From Promethearchaeia archaeon (GTDB lineage Archaea; Asgardarchaeota; Lokiarchaeia; Sigyniarchaeales; SOKP01), in the NCBI GenBank assembly GCA_029856105.1, contig JAHQWH010000002.1, forward strand, positions 1 to 64,000: 64,000 nucleotides of DNA, in the 5' to 3' direction. The notes below the pieces were generated by a model. The model made no database searches, was not told where the DNA came from, and was given only the letters and a program-made list of their open reading frames with translations. Positions 1,886 to 5,050 of the stretch are shown here, piece by piece. Numbering within the stretch: position 1 is the first letter of the stretch; every line of letters starts with the position of its first letter. The position numbers were made by a program, and so were the translations under genes.

Positions 1886-3004
1886 ATGATTGAAAAAGAA
1901 GATAATATATATCGAAAGCTGCAACAGCAATTAGATACATTACCAATAGGCTTTCCTGCGACTAAATCAGGCGTAGAAATTCGATTGTTAAAATTTTTCT
2001 TTAATCTTGAAGAAGCAGAAATAGCAATTAACATGCGATTTATCCCCGAACCTGTGAAAAAGATTTATCGCAGGGTTAAAAAAAAAGTAAAATCCATAGA
2101 GGAACTTGAGCTCATCTTAGACAGAATGTATCACAAGGGTGCTATTAATTTAAAGAGGGTGATGGATGAAAATGGAGAAGAGATACGATATCATCTCGCC
2201 TTTTTAGCAGTAGGTATGTATGAATATCAAGTAAAGTCGATTACAAAAGAGTTTTATGAAGACATCGAGCAATACTTTGAAGAGGAATACCGAGATGAAA
2301 TCGTAAGCACTAAAATCAACCAATTACGAACAATTCCAGTTGAAGAAAGCATCACGCCAGAACATAATATTGCCACATACGACGAACTAAGAACAATAAT
2401 TGAAAGTGCTGAGAAAATTTCCATAATGTATTGCATATGCCAAAAAGGGAAAGATCTAATCGGCGAGTCGTGTACACAGACAAATATGCGCGAGCACTGT
2501 TTCGTACTAAATAATTCTGCTCAACATGTTGTAGACATAGATAACGGAAGATTTATAACAAAGGATGAAGCTTTAAATATACTTAAAAAAGCACAAGAAG
2601 AAGGTTTAATTCTTCAACCTGGAAACGCTCAAGATCCCAATTTCATTTGTTGTTGTTGTGGATGTTGTTGCGATCTTATAACAAATTTAAAGAAACTTGA
2701 GCGTCCTTGGGAAATGTTTTATTCTAATTATTACGCTAATGTTGATTCGAACTCTTGTATCGGCTGTGAAACATGTTTAAATCGATGTCAGATGGATGTT
2801 ATTTCTATGGTTGAGAGTATAGCCGTTGTTGAGCAAAAATTATGTATCGGGTGTGGTAATTGCGTAACAACTTGTCCAGAACAAGCAATAACGCTCAAAA
2901 AGAAAGATAAGGAGATGCTACCACCCAAAACTACAACAGATTTATACTTAAAAATGATGGTCAAAAAAGCAGAATTAAGGCGCGCTGAAAAAGGCACAAC
3001 ATAA
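1886..3004 (+). CDS. 4Fe-4S dicluster protein with N-terminal winged helix and Cys-rich central motif
   Basis: CICQ..., ICCCCGCCC, and two CxxCxxCxxxC motifs (CIGCETCLNRC, CIGCGNCVTTCP). Confidence 0.8.
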   Translation: MIEKEDNIYRKLQQQLDTLPIGFPATKSGVEIRLLKFFFNLEEAEIAINMRFIPEPVKKIYRRVKKKVKSIEELELILDRMYHKGAINLKRVMDENGEEIRYHLAFLAVGMYEYQVKSITKEFYEDIEQYFEEEYRDEIVSTKINQLRTIPVEESITPEHNIATYDELRTIIESAEKISIMYCICQKGKDLIGESCTQTNMREHCFVLNNSAQHVVDIDNGRFITKDEALNILKKAQEEGLILQPGNAQDPNFICCCCGCCCDLITNLKKLERPWEMFYSNYYANVDSNSCIGCETCLNRCQMDVISMVESIAVVEQKLCIGCGNCVTTCPEQAITLKKKDKEMLPPKTTTDLYLKMMVKKAELRRAEKGTT

Positions 3005-3029
3005 AATATTTGATAGAGGTGAAAAAATA

Positions 3030-3395
3030 ATGGGAAAGGGTGGTAAGTATGGAAAGGGATATCAAAAAAAAGATCAAAGTTCGAAAGGTTCAGGAAAAGG
3101 TGCTGGAGGAGCACCCATTCGCGGAGGAAAAATCAAGGCAAGTCATATTTTGGTTGACAAATTTAGTAGAGCCCAAGAATTACGCGAAGACATACAAGCA
3201 GGAGAGAAATTTGAAAGTCTGGCGCAAAAATTTTCTATTTGTCCAAGTAAAAAAAAGAGTGGCAATCTAGGAGATTTCTCTAAGGGTGATATGGTCCCAG
3301 AGTTCTGGAACACGTGTACGAAGCTAAAAATTGGCGAAATTTCTCAGCCAGTTAAAACTAAATATGGATATCATATAATAAAAAGATCGGGTTAA
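3030..3395 (+). CDS. Parvulin-type peptidyl-prolyl isomerase with G/K-rich N-terminal tail
   Basis: IKASHILV, FESLAQKFSICPS, GNLG.F..GDMVPEF, PVKTKYGYHII. Confidence 0.92.
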   Translation: MGKGGKYGKGYQKKDQSSKGSGKGAGGAPIRGGKIKASHILVDKFSRAQELREDIQAGEKFESLAQKFSICPSKKKSGNLGDFSKGDMVPEFWNTCTKLKIGEISQPVKTKYGYHIIKRSG

Positions 3396-3406
3396 AAAAG
3401 AATAAA

Positions 3407-3508
3407 TAGCCCAGCACGGAATTCCGATACACGAGAACTTCGTTAATTTTTCGAACCGTGGTCGCAGGGTTCAGGGCCCCAAATGCTTGACCTCTACACC
3501 ACTGGGCT
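3407..3508 (-). tRNA. tRNA-Gln(CTG) with 29-nt intron at position 59/60 (intron 3421-3449)
   Basis: The reverse complement folds as a cloverleaf: acceptor AGCCCAG/CTGGGCT (A1-U72, typical of archaeal tRNA-Gln), anticodon loop CC-CTG-AA, T-stem CACGG/CCGTG. The T-loop is interrupted by an insertion flanked by a bulge-helix-bulge motif. Confidence 0.9.
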
Positions 3509-3570
3509 TTAATAAAATAAAGGTTTGATTAATTATAATATATTTTCTGTAAAAAATATTATTATTCTGA

Positions 3571-3590
3571 ATAAAGATAGATTTAAATAA
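3571..3590 (+). promoter_or_regulatory. Putative BRE/TATA promoter for the 3612-3755 structured RNA
   Basis: Purine-rich ATAAAGATAG followed by TTTAAATA (3582-3589), ending ~22 nt before the first paired base of the element. Confidence 0.4.
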
Positions 3591-3611
3591 GATTATAGAT
3601 GTGTAATTTAT

Positions 3612-3755
3612 TGGATTACACAGTCTTTATTGGAGGATGCTAAAAAAAACTTGTTTTTCTTAATACTCTTCTAACTGAGGGTATTAAACCCCGTGACTGA
3701 AAAAAACAAAACCCGTATAAACTTAAAAAAAAATTGCTCCTCCATGTGTAATCCA
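3612..3755 (+). ncRNA. Putative structured non-coding RNA (unknown family)
   Basis: Terminal 11-bp stem TGGATTACACA/TGTGTAATCCA; second helix TGGAGGA/TCCTCCA; TTGTTTTT/AAAAACAA; hairpin TTAATACTCT/AGGGTATTAA; no ORF-track hit. Confidence 0.55.
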
Positions 3756-3838
3756 CTTAATGTGATATCTTGGTAATTTTTGTAAGGTTAAATTAAGAAT
3801 TAGGGATTAGTTGAAACTTCTTAATAGTTAAGCAATTA

Positions 3839-5050
3839 TTAATGCTTAAGATTGTATTTTCTAAAAATCTCGTTGAAATACTTATCGCTCATTCCGGAAA
3901 TATAATCTCGCACGACTAAAGTTAACTTATTTTGATCTTTAAGAGGTTTAAAGTAAGTAGAATAGTTTTTGTCATCGATATATTCTATGTGATCTTTAAA
4001 AATTGGGGCGTCGAAGTTATCTTCCTCCAAATCCTTCAAAGATTTTTCAAATATTAATTCAAACTGATAAGTTAAGTTTTCTATGTAAGATATTTTTGAG
4101 CTTTCACTTTTGTAAAGATCTCTTCGACTGTATATTTGTTCATAATTAAATTCCTTCAATCTTTTTAGCGCTTCAAAAATCTCCTCACTATAACCAATTA
4201 TATCACTATCAAGGCTATTATTTAAGAGGTCCATAATAAGAGTTTTCATTATTTTTCGGTTAGTATCGCCAAGTACATTTGTACAACTTCTAGGTAAGTC
4301 AGACCTTTTAATGAATTTAATTAAAATCGCATCTTCGATATCTCTTCCGATGTATGCTATGGTGTCTGCTATCCGAACTCCTACTCCCTCATAAGACATT
4401 GGGATTCTTTTTATCTTATTTTCGTGAAATGCGTCGTTATATTCATTTAAATGGTCTTCCCAAGATTTTCCATTCACTTCAATTGGTTTTAACCCTTGCT
4501 CGTAAACTTCACCATCGTGACAAAGAATTCCGTCTAATACTTGTAGCGTTAAATTTAATCCTTTCGCAGGTTTATTTGGAAACCTTTTTTCTAAGTAAGA
4601 CAACCAACGGCAGCCTTGAGCATTATGATTAAATGTACCCATTTTATACTTTTTACTTATGTCATTAAGTATTTTTTCGCCCAGATGCCCCCTTGGACTA
4701 TGGCCTATGTCGTGTGCTAAACTTATAGCTTCCATTAAATCAGTATTTAGTTTTAATATTCGCCCGATTTGACAAGCAATTCTTGAGACTAATAAAACAT
4801 GTAAAGAGCGATGGGTGATATTTGCGTTGTTAACACCAAAAAAGACTTGTGTTTTGTCAATATAACGCGCATATGCTTTGCTATGAACAATGCGGTCAAC
4901 ATCTCTGAAAAAAGCAGGTCTAATATCGATTTTAGACTCAACATCTTCTTCGTACAATCTTACTGCTTGAGAATCGGATATGGCCTTAAATCCAATATCA
5001 GAATCTCTACGCATATGTAACCGGTATATTTTCAGGTTTTTAGGATCCAT
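3839..5050 (-). CDS. dgt: HD-domain deoxyguanosinetriphosphate triphosphohydrolase-like protein
   Basis: RPAFFRDVDRIVHSKAYARYIDKTQVF, HDIGHSP.GH.GE, ADTIAY..RDIED, DYISGMSD. Confidence 0.88.
   Translation of the reverse strand: MDPKNLKIYRLHMRRDSDIGFKAISDSQAVRLYEEDVESKIDIRPAFFRDVDRIVHSKAYARYIDKTQVFFGVNNANITHRSLHVLLVSRIACQIGRILKLNTDLMEAISLAHDIGHSPRGHLGEKILNDISKKYKMGTFNHNAQGCRWLSYLEKRFPNKPAKGLNLTLQVLDGILCHDGEVYEQGLKPIEVNGKSWEDHLNEYNDAFHENKIKRIPMSYEGVGVRIADTIAYIGRDIEDAILIKFIKRSDLPRSCTNVLGDTNRKIMKTLIMDLLNNSLDSDIIGYSEEIFEALKRLKEFNYEQIYSRRDLYKSESSKISYIENLTYQFELIFEKSLKDLEEDNFDAPIFKDHIEYIDDKNYSTYFKPLKDQNKLTLVVRDYISGMSDKYFNEIFRKYNLKH

What the first reader, a model, noticed from the sequence alone, without database searches (positions are those of the whole stretch)
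3612..3755. Unannotated ~144-nt structured RNA with its own TATA box, divergent from tRNA-Gln
Seen: perfect 11-bp closing stem (3612-3622/3745-3755); 8-nt bulge; 7-bp helix TGGAGGA/TCCTCCA extended by GC/GC; A-rich linkers; 8-bp TTGTTTTT/AAAAACAA; 10-bp hairpin with a U-G pair that favours the + strand. CAGTC (3621-3625) is also complementary to GACTG (3695-3699), allowing a pseudoknot or alternative fold. A TATA-like box sits at the expected archaeal distance upstream. It does not resemble tRNA, 5S, SRP or RNase P RNA. Inference: an independently transcribed ncRNA of an unknown class.
Basis: partly seen in the sequence, partly recalled or inferred. Interest (0 to 1): 0.75.

Follow-up and report, generated by a model that had tools for sequence, protein, structure and literature searches.

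The report
New small folded RNA, Loki archaea
The flagged stretch is a real, separately transcribed gene for a folded non-coding RNA of about 145 bases that one family of Loki-type Asgard archaea keeps as a single copy next to a glutamine tRNA gene; it matches no catalogued RNA family and its job is still unknown.

Summary
Window 3612-3755 (+) folds as described (MFE -35.2 kcal/mol, z -5.6). It is a single-copy gene, not a MITE.

A covariance model finds exactly one full-length copy in 94 of 135 genomes of the same family. It finds none in 25-27 genomes of six other Lokiarchaeia families. No Rfam family matches it.

The two closing helices covary (15 of 17 pairs have double changes; 92% of cells paired against 39-54% when slid). 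A BRE/TATA box sits 25-37 nt upstream in all genera, and an oligo-T run usually follows. A small metatranscriptome holds a 106-nt contig over this RNA only.

The invariant parts are a U-tract and two copies of an ACCCCGU...ACUGA module.

New here: the module AACCCCGUGAC equals nt 37-47 of tRNA-Gln(UUG). About a third of relatives (not this copy) carry a tRNA-type (BHB) insert at that spot, and tRNA-Gln genes of the family carry one at the same spot.

The function is not shown. My best guess is a protein-binding RNP scaffold.

The scan has found this family before on other genomes.

The parts
3575..3590 (+). Promoter block: AGATAGATT followed by the TATA box TTTAAATA (3583-3590)
   Evidence: Consensus aaGatAgAtTTTTat lies at -37..-25 from the first G of P1 in 69 copies from 9 genera (alignment). 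The full block occurs only here in the own genome.
3600..3611 (+). AT-rich promoter-proximal stretch and probable transcription start region (TTATAATTTA-like consensus, -12..-3)
   Evidence: Conserved in the 69-copy consensus. The start site itself is inferred from the TATA distance and has not been mapped.
3612..3755 (+). The RNA as folded (about 144 nt). The true 3' end may lie further on, at the T5 run
   Evidence: Fold. Covariance-model hit at window 3609-3756 with 150 bits. RNA-library contig over 3625-3714.
3612..3622 (+). P1, 5' strand (pairs with 3745-3755)
   Evidence: Eight of 10 pairs show double changes across 69 copies, and 95.9% of cells are paired.
3745..3755 (+). P1, 3' strand
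3623..3630 (+). One-sided internal loop J1/2. Its sequence varies. It is 8-14 nt on the 5' side against 0-4 nt on the 3' side in all genera
3631..3640 (+). P2, 5' strand (UGGAGGA, a bulged U, then GC)
   Evidence: Seven of 7 core pairs show double changes, for example GGAGGAU/AUCCUCC becoming GAAGAU/AUCUUC.
3736..3744 (+). P2, 3' strand
3642..3658 (+). A-run, CUUG, then the U5 tract. This is either a weak A/U hairpin or a single-stranded U-tract. Family consensus: ACUWRUUYUUUAA
   Evidence: TTT is invariant in the genus alignment and present in every genus.
3660..3687 (+). Genus-specific hairpin, 11 bp with a U-G pair
   Evidence: Four of 9 pairs show double changes, and there are 11 U-G and 2 G-U cells within the genus. 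It is replaced by other sequences or absent in some species.
3687..3700 (+). Module 1: AACCCCGUGACUGA, nearly invariant in the family. The site of the BHB-type insert in relatives lies between 3695 and 3696. There is no insert in this copy
   Evidence: Invariant columns. Inserts in 22 of 69 copies. The 11-mer at 3687-3697 is identical to nt 37-47 of tRNA-Gln(UUG).
3708..3722 (+). Module 2: AAAACCCGUAUAAAC. This is a second copy of the C-rich motif, with CCC here and CCCC in most copies
3777..3781 (+). First T5 run downstream, a candidate terminator for this copy
   Evidence: Read. In 42 of 69 copies a run of four or more T lies in or within 25 nt past the last bases of P1, mostly within 4 nt of the end. 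This copy is an exception.
3407..3508 (-). Neighbouring, divergently placed tRNA-Gln(CUG) with a 29-nt insert at 3421-3449
   Evidence: ARAGORN calls a 73-nt tRNA-Gln only after the insert is removed. The same tRNA neighbours the RNA in other genera.

Best explanation
Window 3612-3755 (+) is a stand-alone gene for a stable, structured small RNA of a family that has not been catalogued. I put the odds that this part is right at about 0.95.

Shown:
- It is transcribed from its own BRE/TATA promoter.
- Its 5' and 3' ends are clamped by two covarying helices (P1, P2) separated by a one-sided loop.
- These helices close an A-rich, G-poor interior. The interior displays a U-tract and two copies of an invariant C-rich module (AAACCCCGU, followed in module 1 by ACUGA).
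- Hairpins between these elements come and go between species.

Inferred, with odds of about 0.35-0.4: the RNA works in trans as the RNA part of a ribonucleoprotein. The clamp protects the ends and sets the geometry. The two single-stranded C-rich modules are sequence-specific docking sites for a protein, or for two copies of one protein. The U-tract may hold an Sm-like (SmAP) ring. On this reading the RNA scaffolds or titrates a protein and does not act as an antisense regulator.

Module 1 has the sequence of tRNA-Gln nt 37-47. In relatives it accepts the same tRNA-type insert as tRNA-Gln genes do. The partner may therefore be a factor that also reads tRNA-Gln.

The confidence figure given for this entry (0.4) is for the whole statement including the inferred mechanism.
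For: Gene reality:
- One full-length hit per genome in 94 of 135 genomes of the family and 8 of 13 genera. A rebuilt model gives 91 of 126.
- In the window's genus every negative genome also lacks the neighbouring locus or has it cut by a contig end.
- Synteny of parvulin gene, tRNA-Gln(CUG), RNA and HD gene.
- P1 and P2 covary: 15 of 17 pairs with double changes, 92.4% of cells paired against 39-54% for slid controls, and 0 of 500 shuffles reach the score.
- P3/P4 in the largest genus are predicted by RNAalifold. P4 changes from UUCAGUUA/UAACUGAA to UUUGGCUA/UAGCCGAA within one genus.
- The promoter block is conserved at a fixed distance, and an oligo-T run follows in 42 of 69 copies.
- There is no conserved ORF: 15 of 69 copies have no ATG ORF at all.
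- The RNA library X20 holds a 106-nt contig at depth 12.9 that lies only on 3625-3714, with nothing on the flanking tRNA or protein genes.

Plus strand:
- The promoter lies on that side.
- The minus strand would carry 2.1 runs of six or more U per copy.
- The genus-specific hairpin has 11 U-G and 2 G-U cells.
- The geometry of the insert in relatives fits a BHB motif only on the plus strand.

Protein docking rather than pairing:
- The modules are invariant while everything around them changes.
- Their spacing and order vary between genera.
- In insert-bearing precursors CCCG of module 1 is paired in cis.
- No complementary site was found in the own genome or in rRNA beyond chance.
- Four LSM-domain genes are present.
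Against: No protein partner has been identified, and no binding has been tested. Two sites are few for a sponge. The U-tract can pair with the A-run just upstream and lacks the G of a canonical Sm site.

The transcript evidence is a single assembled contig in one small library. It gives no strand and no ends. Its last 16 nt are those of a variant copy.

G-U against A-C counts in P1 and P2 (20 against 16) do not decide the strand by themselves.

A T5 run inside the RNA (3654-3658) could terminate some transcripts.

One genus with two 100%-complete genomes (0 of 5) lacks the RNA, so it is not essential to the family.

Seed pairing of 6-8 nt to mRNAs cannot be excluded with these tools.
Confidence: 0.4

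Rival explanations
1. It is a trans-acting antisense RNA. The two exposed C-rich modules pair with G-rich sites (ACGGGGU) in mRNAs or in another small RNA and control translation or stability. C-rich loops of some bacterial sRNAs work this way.
For: The modules are predicted to be single-stranded and are invariant. C-rich motifs are well suited to G-rich partners. In most genera ACUGA already pairs in cis with UCAGU, which shows that the module can pair.
Against: There is no site complementary to the 12-14-nt modules in the 92%-complete genome beyond one chance-level hit. There are only four non-ORF sites for [CT]ACGGGGT. They are the element itself, antisense rDNA, antisense tRNA-Gln and a contig end. 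The best duplexes with 16S and 23S rRNA are no better than shuffles (fraction 0.31 and 0.14). In insert-bearing precursors part of module 1 is paired in cis.
Confidence: 0.2
2. It is a tRNA-Gln-linked RNA. Either module 1 is descended from the anticodon-arm and variable-loop part of a tRNA-Gln gene, or it mimics that part. The RNA would then act as decoy, cofactor or regulator for a factor that reads tRNA-Gln. It is handled by the tRNA-splicing machinery.
For: AACCCCGTGAC occurs twice in the genome (0.26 expected): here and as nt 37-47 of tRNA-Gln(UUG). tRNA-Gln(UUG) is the best local match among 24 tRNA sequences of the genome once a 1.26-kb false tRNA-Phe call by ARAGORN is set aside (mean 11.0 against 9.1 or less; shuffles 6.6 +/- 1.2). 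The gene sits next to tRNA-Gln(CUG) wherever ARAGORN could name the neighbouring tRNA: genera g1, g27 and g28, and g19 once its insert is removed. The 29-32-nt insert in 22 of 69 copies lies after CCCCGUG, ends in GGGAA and is followed by AC. The same is true of the insert in the neighbouring tRNA-Gln(CUG) of another genus, where its removal gives a 73-nt tRNA-Gln, and of tRNA-Gln(UUG) in three genomes.
Against: The identity is only 11 nt, and I noticed it after the fact. A global alignment of the P4-enclosed core with tRNA-Gln is no better than shuffles (z 1.4 or less). No tRNA model matches the element. The partner strand of the anticodon stem is absent, so this is not a structural mimic of the arm. 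The shared context could simply be what let a mobile BHB insert land in both genes.
Confidence: 0.12
3. It is not a plus-strand RNA gene. It would instead be a DNA-level palindrome (a protein-binding inverted repeat or origin-like element), or the minus-strand 3' UTR and terminator region of the HD-domain gene.
For: P1 and P2 are nearly invariant in sequence within the genus, as binding sites would be. The element lies 80 nt past the 3' end of a convergent gene and carries long T-runs on the minus strand. G-U against A-C counts in P1 and P2 are balanced.
Against: Across genera P1 and P2 change by compensatory pairs. Internal hairpins covary, with G-U pairs on the plus strand only. The distance between the arms varies from 104 to 208 nt. 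The conserved promoter is on the plus side. The orientation relative to the HD gene flips in some genera, and the HD gene does not co-occur with the element.
Confidence: 0.03
4. It is a diverged member of a known class (C/D or H/ACA guide RNA, Y RNA, RNase P or SRP RNA fragment, 6S-like RNA) that the models miss in this AT-rich lineage.
For: CUGA tetramers occur (3675-3678, 3697-3700). The ends pair as in Y RNAs. RNase P RNA was not found in the own genome with RF00373.
Against: There is no Rfam hit for 21 diverse copies at permissive E-values. There is no RUGAUGA box, no conserved ANA box after P1, and no strand able to form a P4 helix with CCCCGUAU. There is no TROVE/Ro60 gene. The SRP RNA lies elsewhere.
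Confidence: 0.03
5. It is a MITE or other mobile-element relic with terminal inverted repeats.
For: It has 11-bp perfect terminal inverted repeats and lies beside a tRNA gene.
Against: It is single-copy in the own genome and in every positive genome, always at the same syntenic place. There is no target duplication in the flanks. Nothing similar was found in phage records or viral contigs.
Confidence: 0.01

Closest known systems
Y RNAs (Ro60-bound small RNAs of eukaryotes and some bacteria)
   Same: About 100-150 nt. The 5' and 3' ends pair into a long stem interrupted by an asymmetric loop. The interior is large, weakly structured and variable. Most copies have an oligo-U tail. Low copy number.
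   Different: There is no sequence or model match and no TROVE/Ro60 gene in the genome. The conserved part here is the interior (C-rich modules), whereas in Y RNAs (from memory) the conserved part is the stem.
Protein-titrating sRNAs with repeated single-stranded motifs (CsrB/RsmZ with GGA, CrcZ with A-rich motifs)
   Same: Repeated short invariant motifs are displayed in unpaired regions between variable hairpins. This is the kind of mechanism I favour.
   Different: There are only two motif copies, the motif is different, those RNAs are bacterial, and no partner is known here. This is an analogy in how it may work and carries no claim of membership.
Sm-class snRNAs and SmAP/Lsm-bound archaeal RNAs
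   Same: A conserved U5-type tract flanked by A residues lies between structured parts. LSM-domain genes are present.
   Different: The tract lacks the 3' G of the Sm consensus (recalled from memory) and can pair with the upstream A-run. No binding has been tested.
tRNA-Gln and BHB-intron-bearing archaeal genes
   Same: Module 1 equals tRNA-Gln(UUG) nt 37-47. In relatives the RNA carries a 29-32-nt insert with a CCCG/CGGG central helix at the equivalent of tRNA position 45/46. tRNA-Gln genes of the family carry a like insert at the same place.
   Different: There is no cloverleaf and no tRNA-model hit, and the global similarity is not significant. The window's copy has no insert. Splicing of the insert has not been shown.

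Membership tests
Any Rfam 15 family (4227 models) | Covariance-model score at or near the family's gathering score | tested here: not met
   Nothing lies on the element at E up to 10 in window 3000-4300, or at E up to 5 in 20 divergent homologous loci, where only neighbouring tRNAs are found.
tRNA | Cloverleaf recognised by ARAGORN or the Rfam tRNA model | tested here: not met
   There is only an 11-nt local identity to tRNA-Gln(UUG). Global alignment gives z 1.4 or less.
C/D box sRNA | C box RUGAUGA near the 5' end and D box CUGA near the 3' end, forming a K-turn next to the terminal stem | tested here: not met
   CUGA is present, but there is no RUGAUGA or UGAUGA in the window copy or in the family consensus. 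No C/D family of Rfam hits it. The box definitions are recalled from memory.
H/ACA sRNA | ANA box directly 3' of the lower stem, and a two-sided pseudouridylation pocket | tested here: not met
   The bases after P1 vary (AC, TT, AA, AT, TC). The internal loop is one-sided, 8-14 nt against 0-4 nt.
Y RNA | A Ro60 (TROVE) protein in the same genome | tested here: not met
   PF05731 was not found in the own genome, which is 92% complete. The positive controls did give hits.
RNase P RNA | Match to RF00373, and a P4 helix formed by two distant conserved strands | tested here: not met
   There is no hit on the element. No strand is complementary to CCCCGUAU anywhere in the RNA (reading).
MITE | Many dispersed copies with target-site duplications | tested here: not met
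   One copy in the own genome. One per genome at a syntenic site in 94 genomes.
Sm-site RNA | A single-stranded RAU(4-6)GR site bound by an Sm/Lsm ring | tested here: inconclusive
   The U-tract is conserved and LSM genes are present. However, the tract lacks the G, it can pair with the A-run (centroid), and binding cannot be tested here.
Independent archaeal RNA gene | BRE/TATA at about -25 to -37, and an oligo-T run after the 3' end | tested here: met
   The promoter consensus is conserved in 69 copies. A run of four or more T follows in 42 of 69 copies, and in the window a T5 run lies 22 nt downstream. The transcript ends have not been mapped.
BHB (tRNA-type) intron, in relatives only | A 4-bp central helix flanked by 3-nt bulges, with cuts two bases into each bulge restoring the uninterrupted sequence | tested here: met
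   Twenty-two of 69 copies have CCCG/CGGG (CCC/GGG in the window's genus), a 5' bulge UGA, a 3' AAN, and a covarying inner helix. The predicted junction gives exactly the intronless consensus. The outer helix is absent, so this is the relaxed form. Splicing has not been shown. The window copy has no insert.

The most novel reading that the evidence does not exclude
The RNA is a tRNA-Gln-related ribonucleoprotein RNA. Its invariant module is the anticodon-arm and variable-loop segment of tRNA-Gln, kept as a docking site for a factor that also reads tRNA-Gln. The same mobile tRNA-type intron has moved between tRNA-Gln genes and this non-tRNA gene. That would make it a rare traceable case of BHB-intron transposition outside tRNA/rRNA, in the closest archaeal relatives of eukaryotes.
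Probability: 0.15. Interest if true: 0.8.

Novelty: categorically new. Interest (0 to 1): 0.62.

Why it matters
Asgard archaea are the closest known relatives of eukaryotes, yet I found no description of lineage-specific non-coding RNAs for them in three full-text searches. This is a well-supported, single-copy, strongly constrained RNA that fits none of the known classes, so it probably marks an undescribed ribonucleoprotein.

Its link to tRNA-Gln has two parts: a shared 11-mer, and the same tRNA-type insert at the same site. That link gives a concrete handle for finding the partner and for studying how archaeal introns spread to non-tRNA genes. The covariance model built here can be used to annotate the family in about 90 genomes and in sediment metagenomes.

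Tried and rejected
- Promoter regulon: the block AGATAGATTTWWAT occurs only at this gene in the own genome. The 109 hits to GATAGATTT are scattered and mostly lie inside genes.
- Targets: I searched for sites complementary to the modules with up to 1-2 mismatches, and for 8-mers in non-ORF DNA. Nothing beyond chance turned up.
- rRNA pairing: the best duplexes of the core with 16S (from a genus relative) and the own 23S are within the shuffle range.
- Functional link to the neighbouring HD/dGTPase-like gene: rejected. The gene is present in the genus that lacks the RNA (5 of 5) and was not found in 3 of 4 genomes of a genus that has it. Its orientation also flips.
- Neighbour domains are housekeeping types: Fe-S, parvulin, HD.
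- Y RNA: no TROVE gene.
- RNase P and SRP: no match on the element.
- K-turn: I read CCCCGUG/ACUGA as a K-turn in both the insert-free and insert-bearing forms. The non-bulged strand lacks the required GA, so I rejected it. The K-turn rules are recalled from memory.
- Pseudoknot: pairing between J1/2 and the 3' linker (GGUUUAC/GUAAUACC) is seen in one subgroup only and is not conserved.
- Telomerase-template likeness of AAAACCCC: recalled from memory. No supporting evidence was sought or seen, so I dropped it.
- Whole-core derivation from tRNA-Gln: not significant.
- Mobile or viral origin: no match in phage records or viral contigs.
- Sister family, including three single-contig genomes: 0 of 14 at E up to 0.1.
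- The syntenic spot after the parvulin gene, in one genome of the RNA-less genus and in one sister-family genome, holds no such element.
- Run X19 is labelled metatranscriptomic but is probably DNA, so I did not use it as expression evidence.
- Literature: three full-text searches found no description of this RNA. A preprint on Asgard tRNA introns has no occurrence of 'small RNA', 'ncRNA' or 'non-tRNA' in its main text.

Full report
**Observation**

As RNA, the plus strand folds into four features:
- an 11-bp closing stem (3612-3622/3745-3755);
- an 8-nt one-sided loop;
- a 7-bp helix UGGAGGA/UCCUCCA, extended by two G-C pairs;
- an 11-bp hairpin with a U-G pair.

The MFE is -35.2 kcal/mol, and none of 200 dinucleotide-preserving shuffles folds as well (z -5.6). 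The reverse strand is less exceptional (z -3.7). ARAGORN and a permissive Rfam scan find nothing on the element.

**Not a repeat, and conserved**

The own genome (3.66 Mb, 92% complete) holds one copy. BLAST against relatives found homologues in 32 of 36 genomes of the genus. The alignment showed conservation that starts a few bases before the closing stem and ends just after it. It also showed a conserved upstream block.

A covariance model built from 20 genus copies found exactly one full-length hit in 94 of 135 genomes of the family, in 8 of 13 genera. A second model built from 69 copies gave these results:
- 91 of 126 genomes of the family, and 0 of 25 genomes from six other families of the class;
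- 0 of 14 in the sister family under laxer filters;
- 0 of 5 in one genus of the same family, two of whose genomes are 100% complete.

Seven of the nine negative genomes in the window's own genus also lack the HD-domain neighbour. In the other two the HD gene is cut by a contig end. The two negatives also tested for the parvulin gene lack it as well. These negatives are therefore gaps in the locus. They do not show loss of the RNA alone.

A scan of public metagenome contigs for a 17-nt core motif found 88 stretches. Of the 80 fetched as loci, 34 carry a full-length copy. Phage records and viral contigs hold nothing similar.

**Structure**

On the 69-copy alignment, 8 of 10 pairs of P1 and 7 of 7 pairs of P2 show changes on both sides that keep the pair. 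In all, 92.4% of cells are paired, against 39-54% when the partner column is slid by 1-3. None of 500 shuffles reaches the observed covariation. That alignment was fitted to the model, which favours the structure. Even so, the exchanges can be read directly in the sequences:
- GGAUUACAC/GUGUAAUCC becomes GGUGGAUG/CAUCCACC or GGAUUACGCAC/GUGCGUAGUCC;
- GGAGGAU/AUCCUCC becomes GAAGAU/AUCUUC.

In the largest genus, RNAalifold adds two more helices, AAAAAG/CUUUUU and UCAGUUU/AAACUGA. Within another genus the latter changes to UUUGGCUA/UAGCCGAA. The window's genus has lost the 5' strands of these two helices and instead has its own hairpin (3660-3687). That hairpin covaries and carries 11 U-G and 2 G-U cells.

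The CAGUC/GACUG pairing is limited to the nearest relatives.

What never changes is:
- a U-tract motif (ACUWRUUYUUUAA);
- module 1, AAACCCCGUG-ACUGAAA;
- an A-run;
- module 2, AAAACCCCGUA.

**An independent gene on the plus strand**

The consensus of 69 upstream regions has aaGatAgAtTTTTat at -37 to -25 from the first G of P1, and a second AT-rich block at -12 to -3. A run of four or more T begins in or within 25 nt past the last bases of P1 in 42 of 69 copies, mostly within 4 nt of the end. In the window the first T5 run lies 22 nt downstream.

The minus strand would contain on average 2.1 runs of six or more U per copy. No ORF is conserved. G-U against A-C counts in P1 and P2 alone are balanced (20 against 16). 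The strand call therefore rests on the promoter, the T-runs, the hairpin G-U pairs, and the geometry of the insert described below.

**Expression**

Of 23 public runs listed, 20 hold the stretch or a part of it, and two of these are labelled as RNA libraries. In the small RNA-Seq run X20 (41 million letters), the only contig on the 801-nt stretch is 106 nt long, at depth 12.9. It lies on 3625-3714 without a mismatch and then continues as a variant copy of the same RNA. The flanking tRNA and protein genes are not covered.

This is a hint of an abundant small transcript. It gives no ends and no strand.

**The insert in relatives**

Earlier notes of this scan on other genomes (e1-5574702, e1-5649589) read a 30-nt insertion in this RNA as a tRNA-type intron. 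I had first set this idea aside because I had the motif geometry the wrong way round. I then tested it.

Twenty-two of 69 copies carry 29-32 extra bases at one site, after CCCCGUG. In these copies:
- CCCG pairs with CGGG at the end of the insert (CCC/GGG in the window's genus);
- a 3-nt bulge (UGA) and a covarying inner helix follow on the 5' side;
- AAN follows on the 3' side;
- cuts two bases past the central helix on each strand give exactly the insert-free consensus, including the genus-specific UG variant.

The outer helix is missing, so this is the relaxed form of the motif. The window's copy has no insert; the site would lie between 3695 and 3696.

**Link to tRNA-Gln (found here)**

While looking for partners of the modules, I found that AACCCCGTGAC occurs only twice in the genome, where 0.26 occurrences are expected. 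One is in this RNA. The other is nt 37-47 of tRNA-Gln(UUG), which covers the last two loop bases, the 3' strand of the anticodon stem, and the variable loop.

ARAGORN called 23 tRNAs in the genome, one of which is a 1.26-kb false call. With that one set aside and the two spliced tRNA-Gln sequences added, tRNA-Gln(UUG) is the best local match of the 69 RNAs among the 24. Its mean score is 11.0, against 9.1 or less for the others and 6.6 +/- 1.2 for shuffles.

The gene next to the RNA is tRNA-Gln(CUG) in the window and wherever ARAGORN can call it in other genera.

The insert site of the RNA corresponds to tRNA position 45/46, and tRNA-Gln genes of the family carry inserts there:
- In one genus the neighbouring tRNA-Gln(CUG) has a 30-nt insert after CCCCGAG that ends in GGGAA and is followed by AC. 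Removing it gives a 73-nt tRNA-Gln.
- tRNA-Gln(UUG) of three genomes has the same arrangement, with CCCG/CGGG.
- 27 further genomes have an insert two bases further on.

Against common descent of the whole RNA from a tRNA: a global alignment of the P4-enclosed core with tRNA-Gln is no better than shuffles, and no tRNA model sees the element.

The shared 11-mer could therefore be any of three things: a remnant of descent, the landing context that let one kind of insert enter both genes, or a shared recognition site. I cannot decide between these.

**Function**

Function is not shown. I tested and found no support for the following:
- a shared promoter regulon;
- complementary targets in the genome;
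- pairing with rRNA;
- a link to the HD-domain neighbour, which does not co-occur with the RNA;
- a Ro60 partner.

Several features fit a protein-binding scaffold better than an antisense RNA. The single-stranded modules are invariant while the hairpins, the spacing and even the module order vary. There are two copies of the module. The G-poor interior is clamped by two helices. Part of module 1 is paired in cis in the insert-bearing precursors.

A U-tract and four LSM genes make an Sm-like ring a possible second partner.

I put about 0.95 on a real plus-strand ncRNA gene of an uncatalogued family. For the RNP-scaffold mechanism I put about 0.35-0.4. For antisense action the figure is about 0.2, and for a tRNA-Gln-linked role about 0.12.

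**Novelty**

The RNA fails every membership test I could run (Rfam, tRNA, C/D, H/ACA, Y RNA, RNase P, MITE). I found no description of it in three full-text searches. The scan has met the same family before in other genomes. Those notes agree that it is real and of unknown function.

Noticed in passing
window 3407-3508 (-), insert 3421-3449: tRNA-Gln(CUG) is interrupted by a 29-nt insert in the T-loop. ARAGORN and the Rfam tRNA model both miss the gene as it stands. ARAGORN calls a 73-nt tRNA-Gln once the insert is removed.
   Followed up: yes
G000:C219:11780-11885 (L115:131-235): tRNA-Gln(UUG) of the same genome also has a T-loop insert of about 27 nt. In 30 of 135 family genomes this tRNA instead, or in addition, carries a 30-nt insert in the variable region, at two positions 2 nt apart.
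   Followed up: partly
L120 and L121 (G088, G090), tRNA-Gln(UUG): The variable-region insert of these tRNA-Gln genes contains a second copy of CUUGAACCCCG, the anticodon loop and stem segment of the tRNA itself. After removing this insert alone, ARAGORN still does not call the tRNA, so further inserts are likely.
   Followed up: no
own genome, whole: The archaeal RNase P RNA model (RF00373) finds nothing at E up to 0.001 in this 92%-complete genome. The SRP RNA at C8:45383-45695 scores only 55.5 bits against a gathering score of 96.5. Either the universal RNAs of this lineage are strongly diverged or some are unassembled.
   Followed up: no
G000:C34: The 3' end of a 16S rRNA gene lies at the start of contig C34 (about 1-310). 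The 23S gene lies 45 kb away on the same contig (45014-48345). The rRNA genes therefore appear unlinked.
   Followed up: no
G000:C19:72679-73942: ARAGORN, with intron search on, reports a 1264-nt 'tRNA-Phe(aaa)'. This is almost certainly a false call in AT-rich DNA. It distorted a tRNA comparison until I set it aside.
   Followed up: partly
loci of genus g28, 10-18 nt past the end of the RNA (e.g. L083, L084, L087): A semi-conserved TTAAATA follows the oligo-T run downstream of the RNA in many species of the largest genus. It could belong to the RNA's 3' extension or be a minus-strand signal. It is unexplained.
   Followed up: no
G021, G148, G029, G024, G147, G001, G011 (same genus): These assemblies, several 95-99% complete, lack the RNA and its HD-domain neighbour together, and the two tested (G021, G148) also lack the parvulin gene. 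The whole locus is either unassembled or deleted in them.
   Followed up: partly
I did not examine it here.
   Followed up: no
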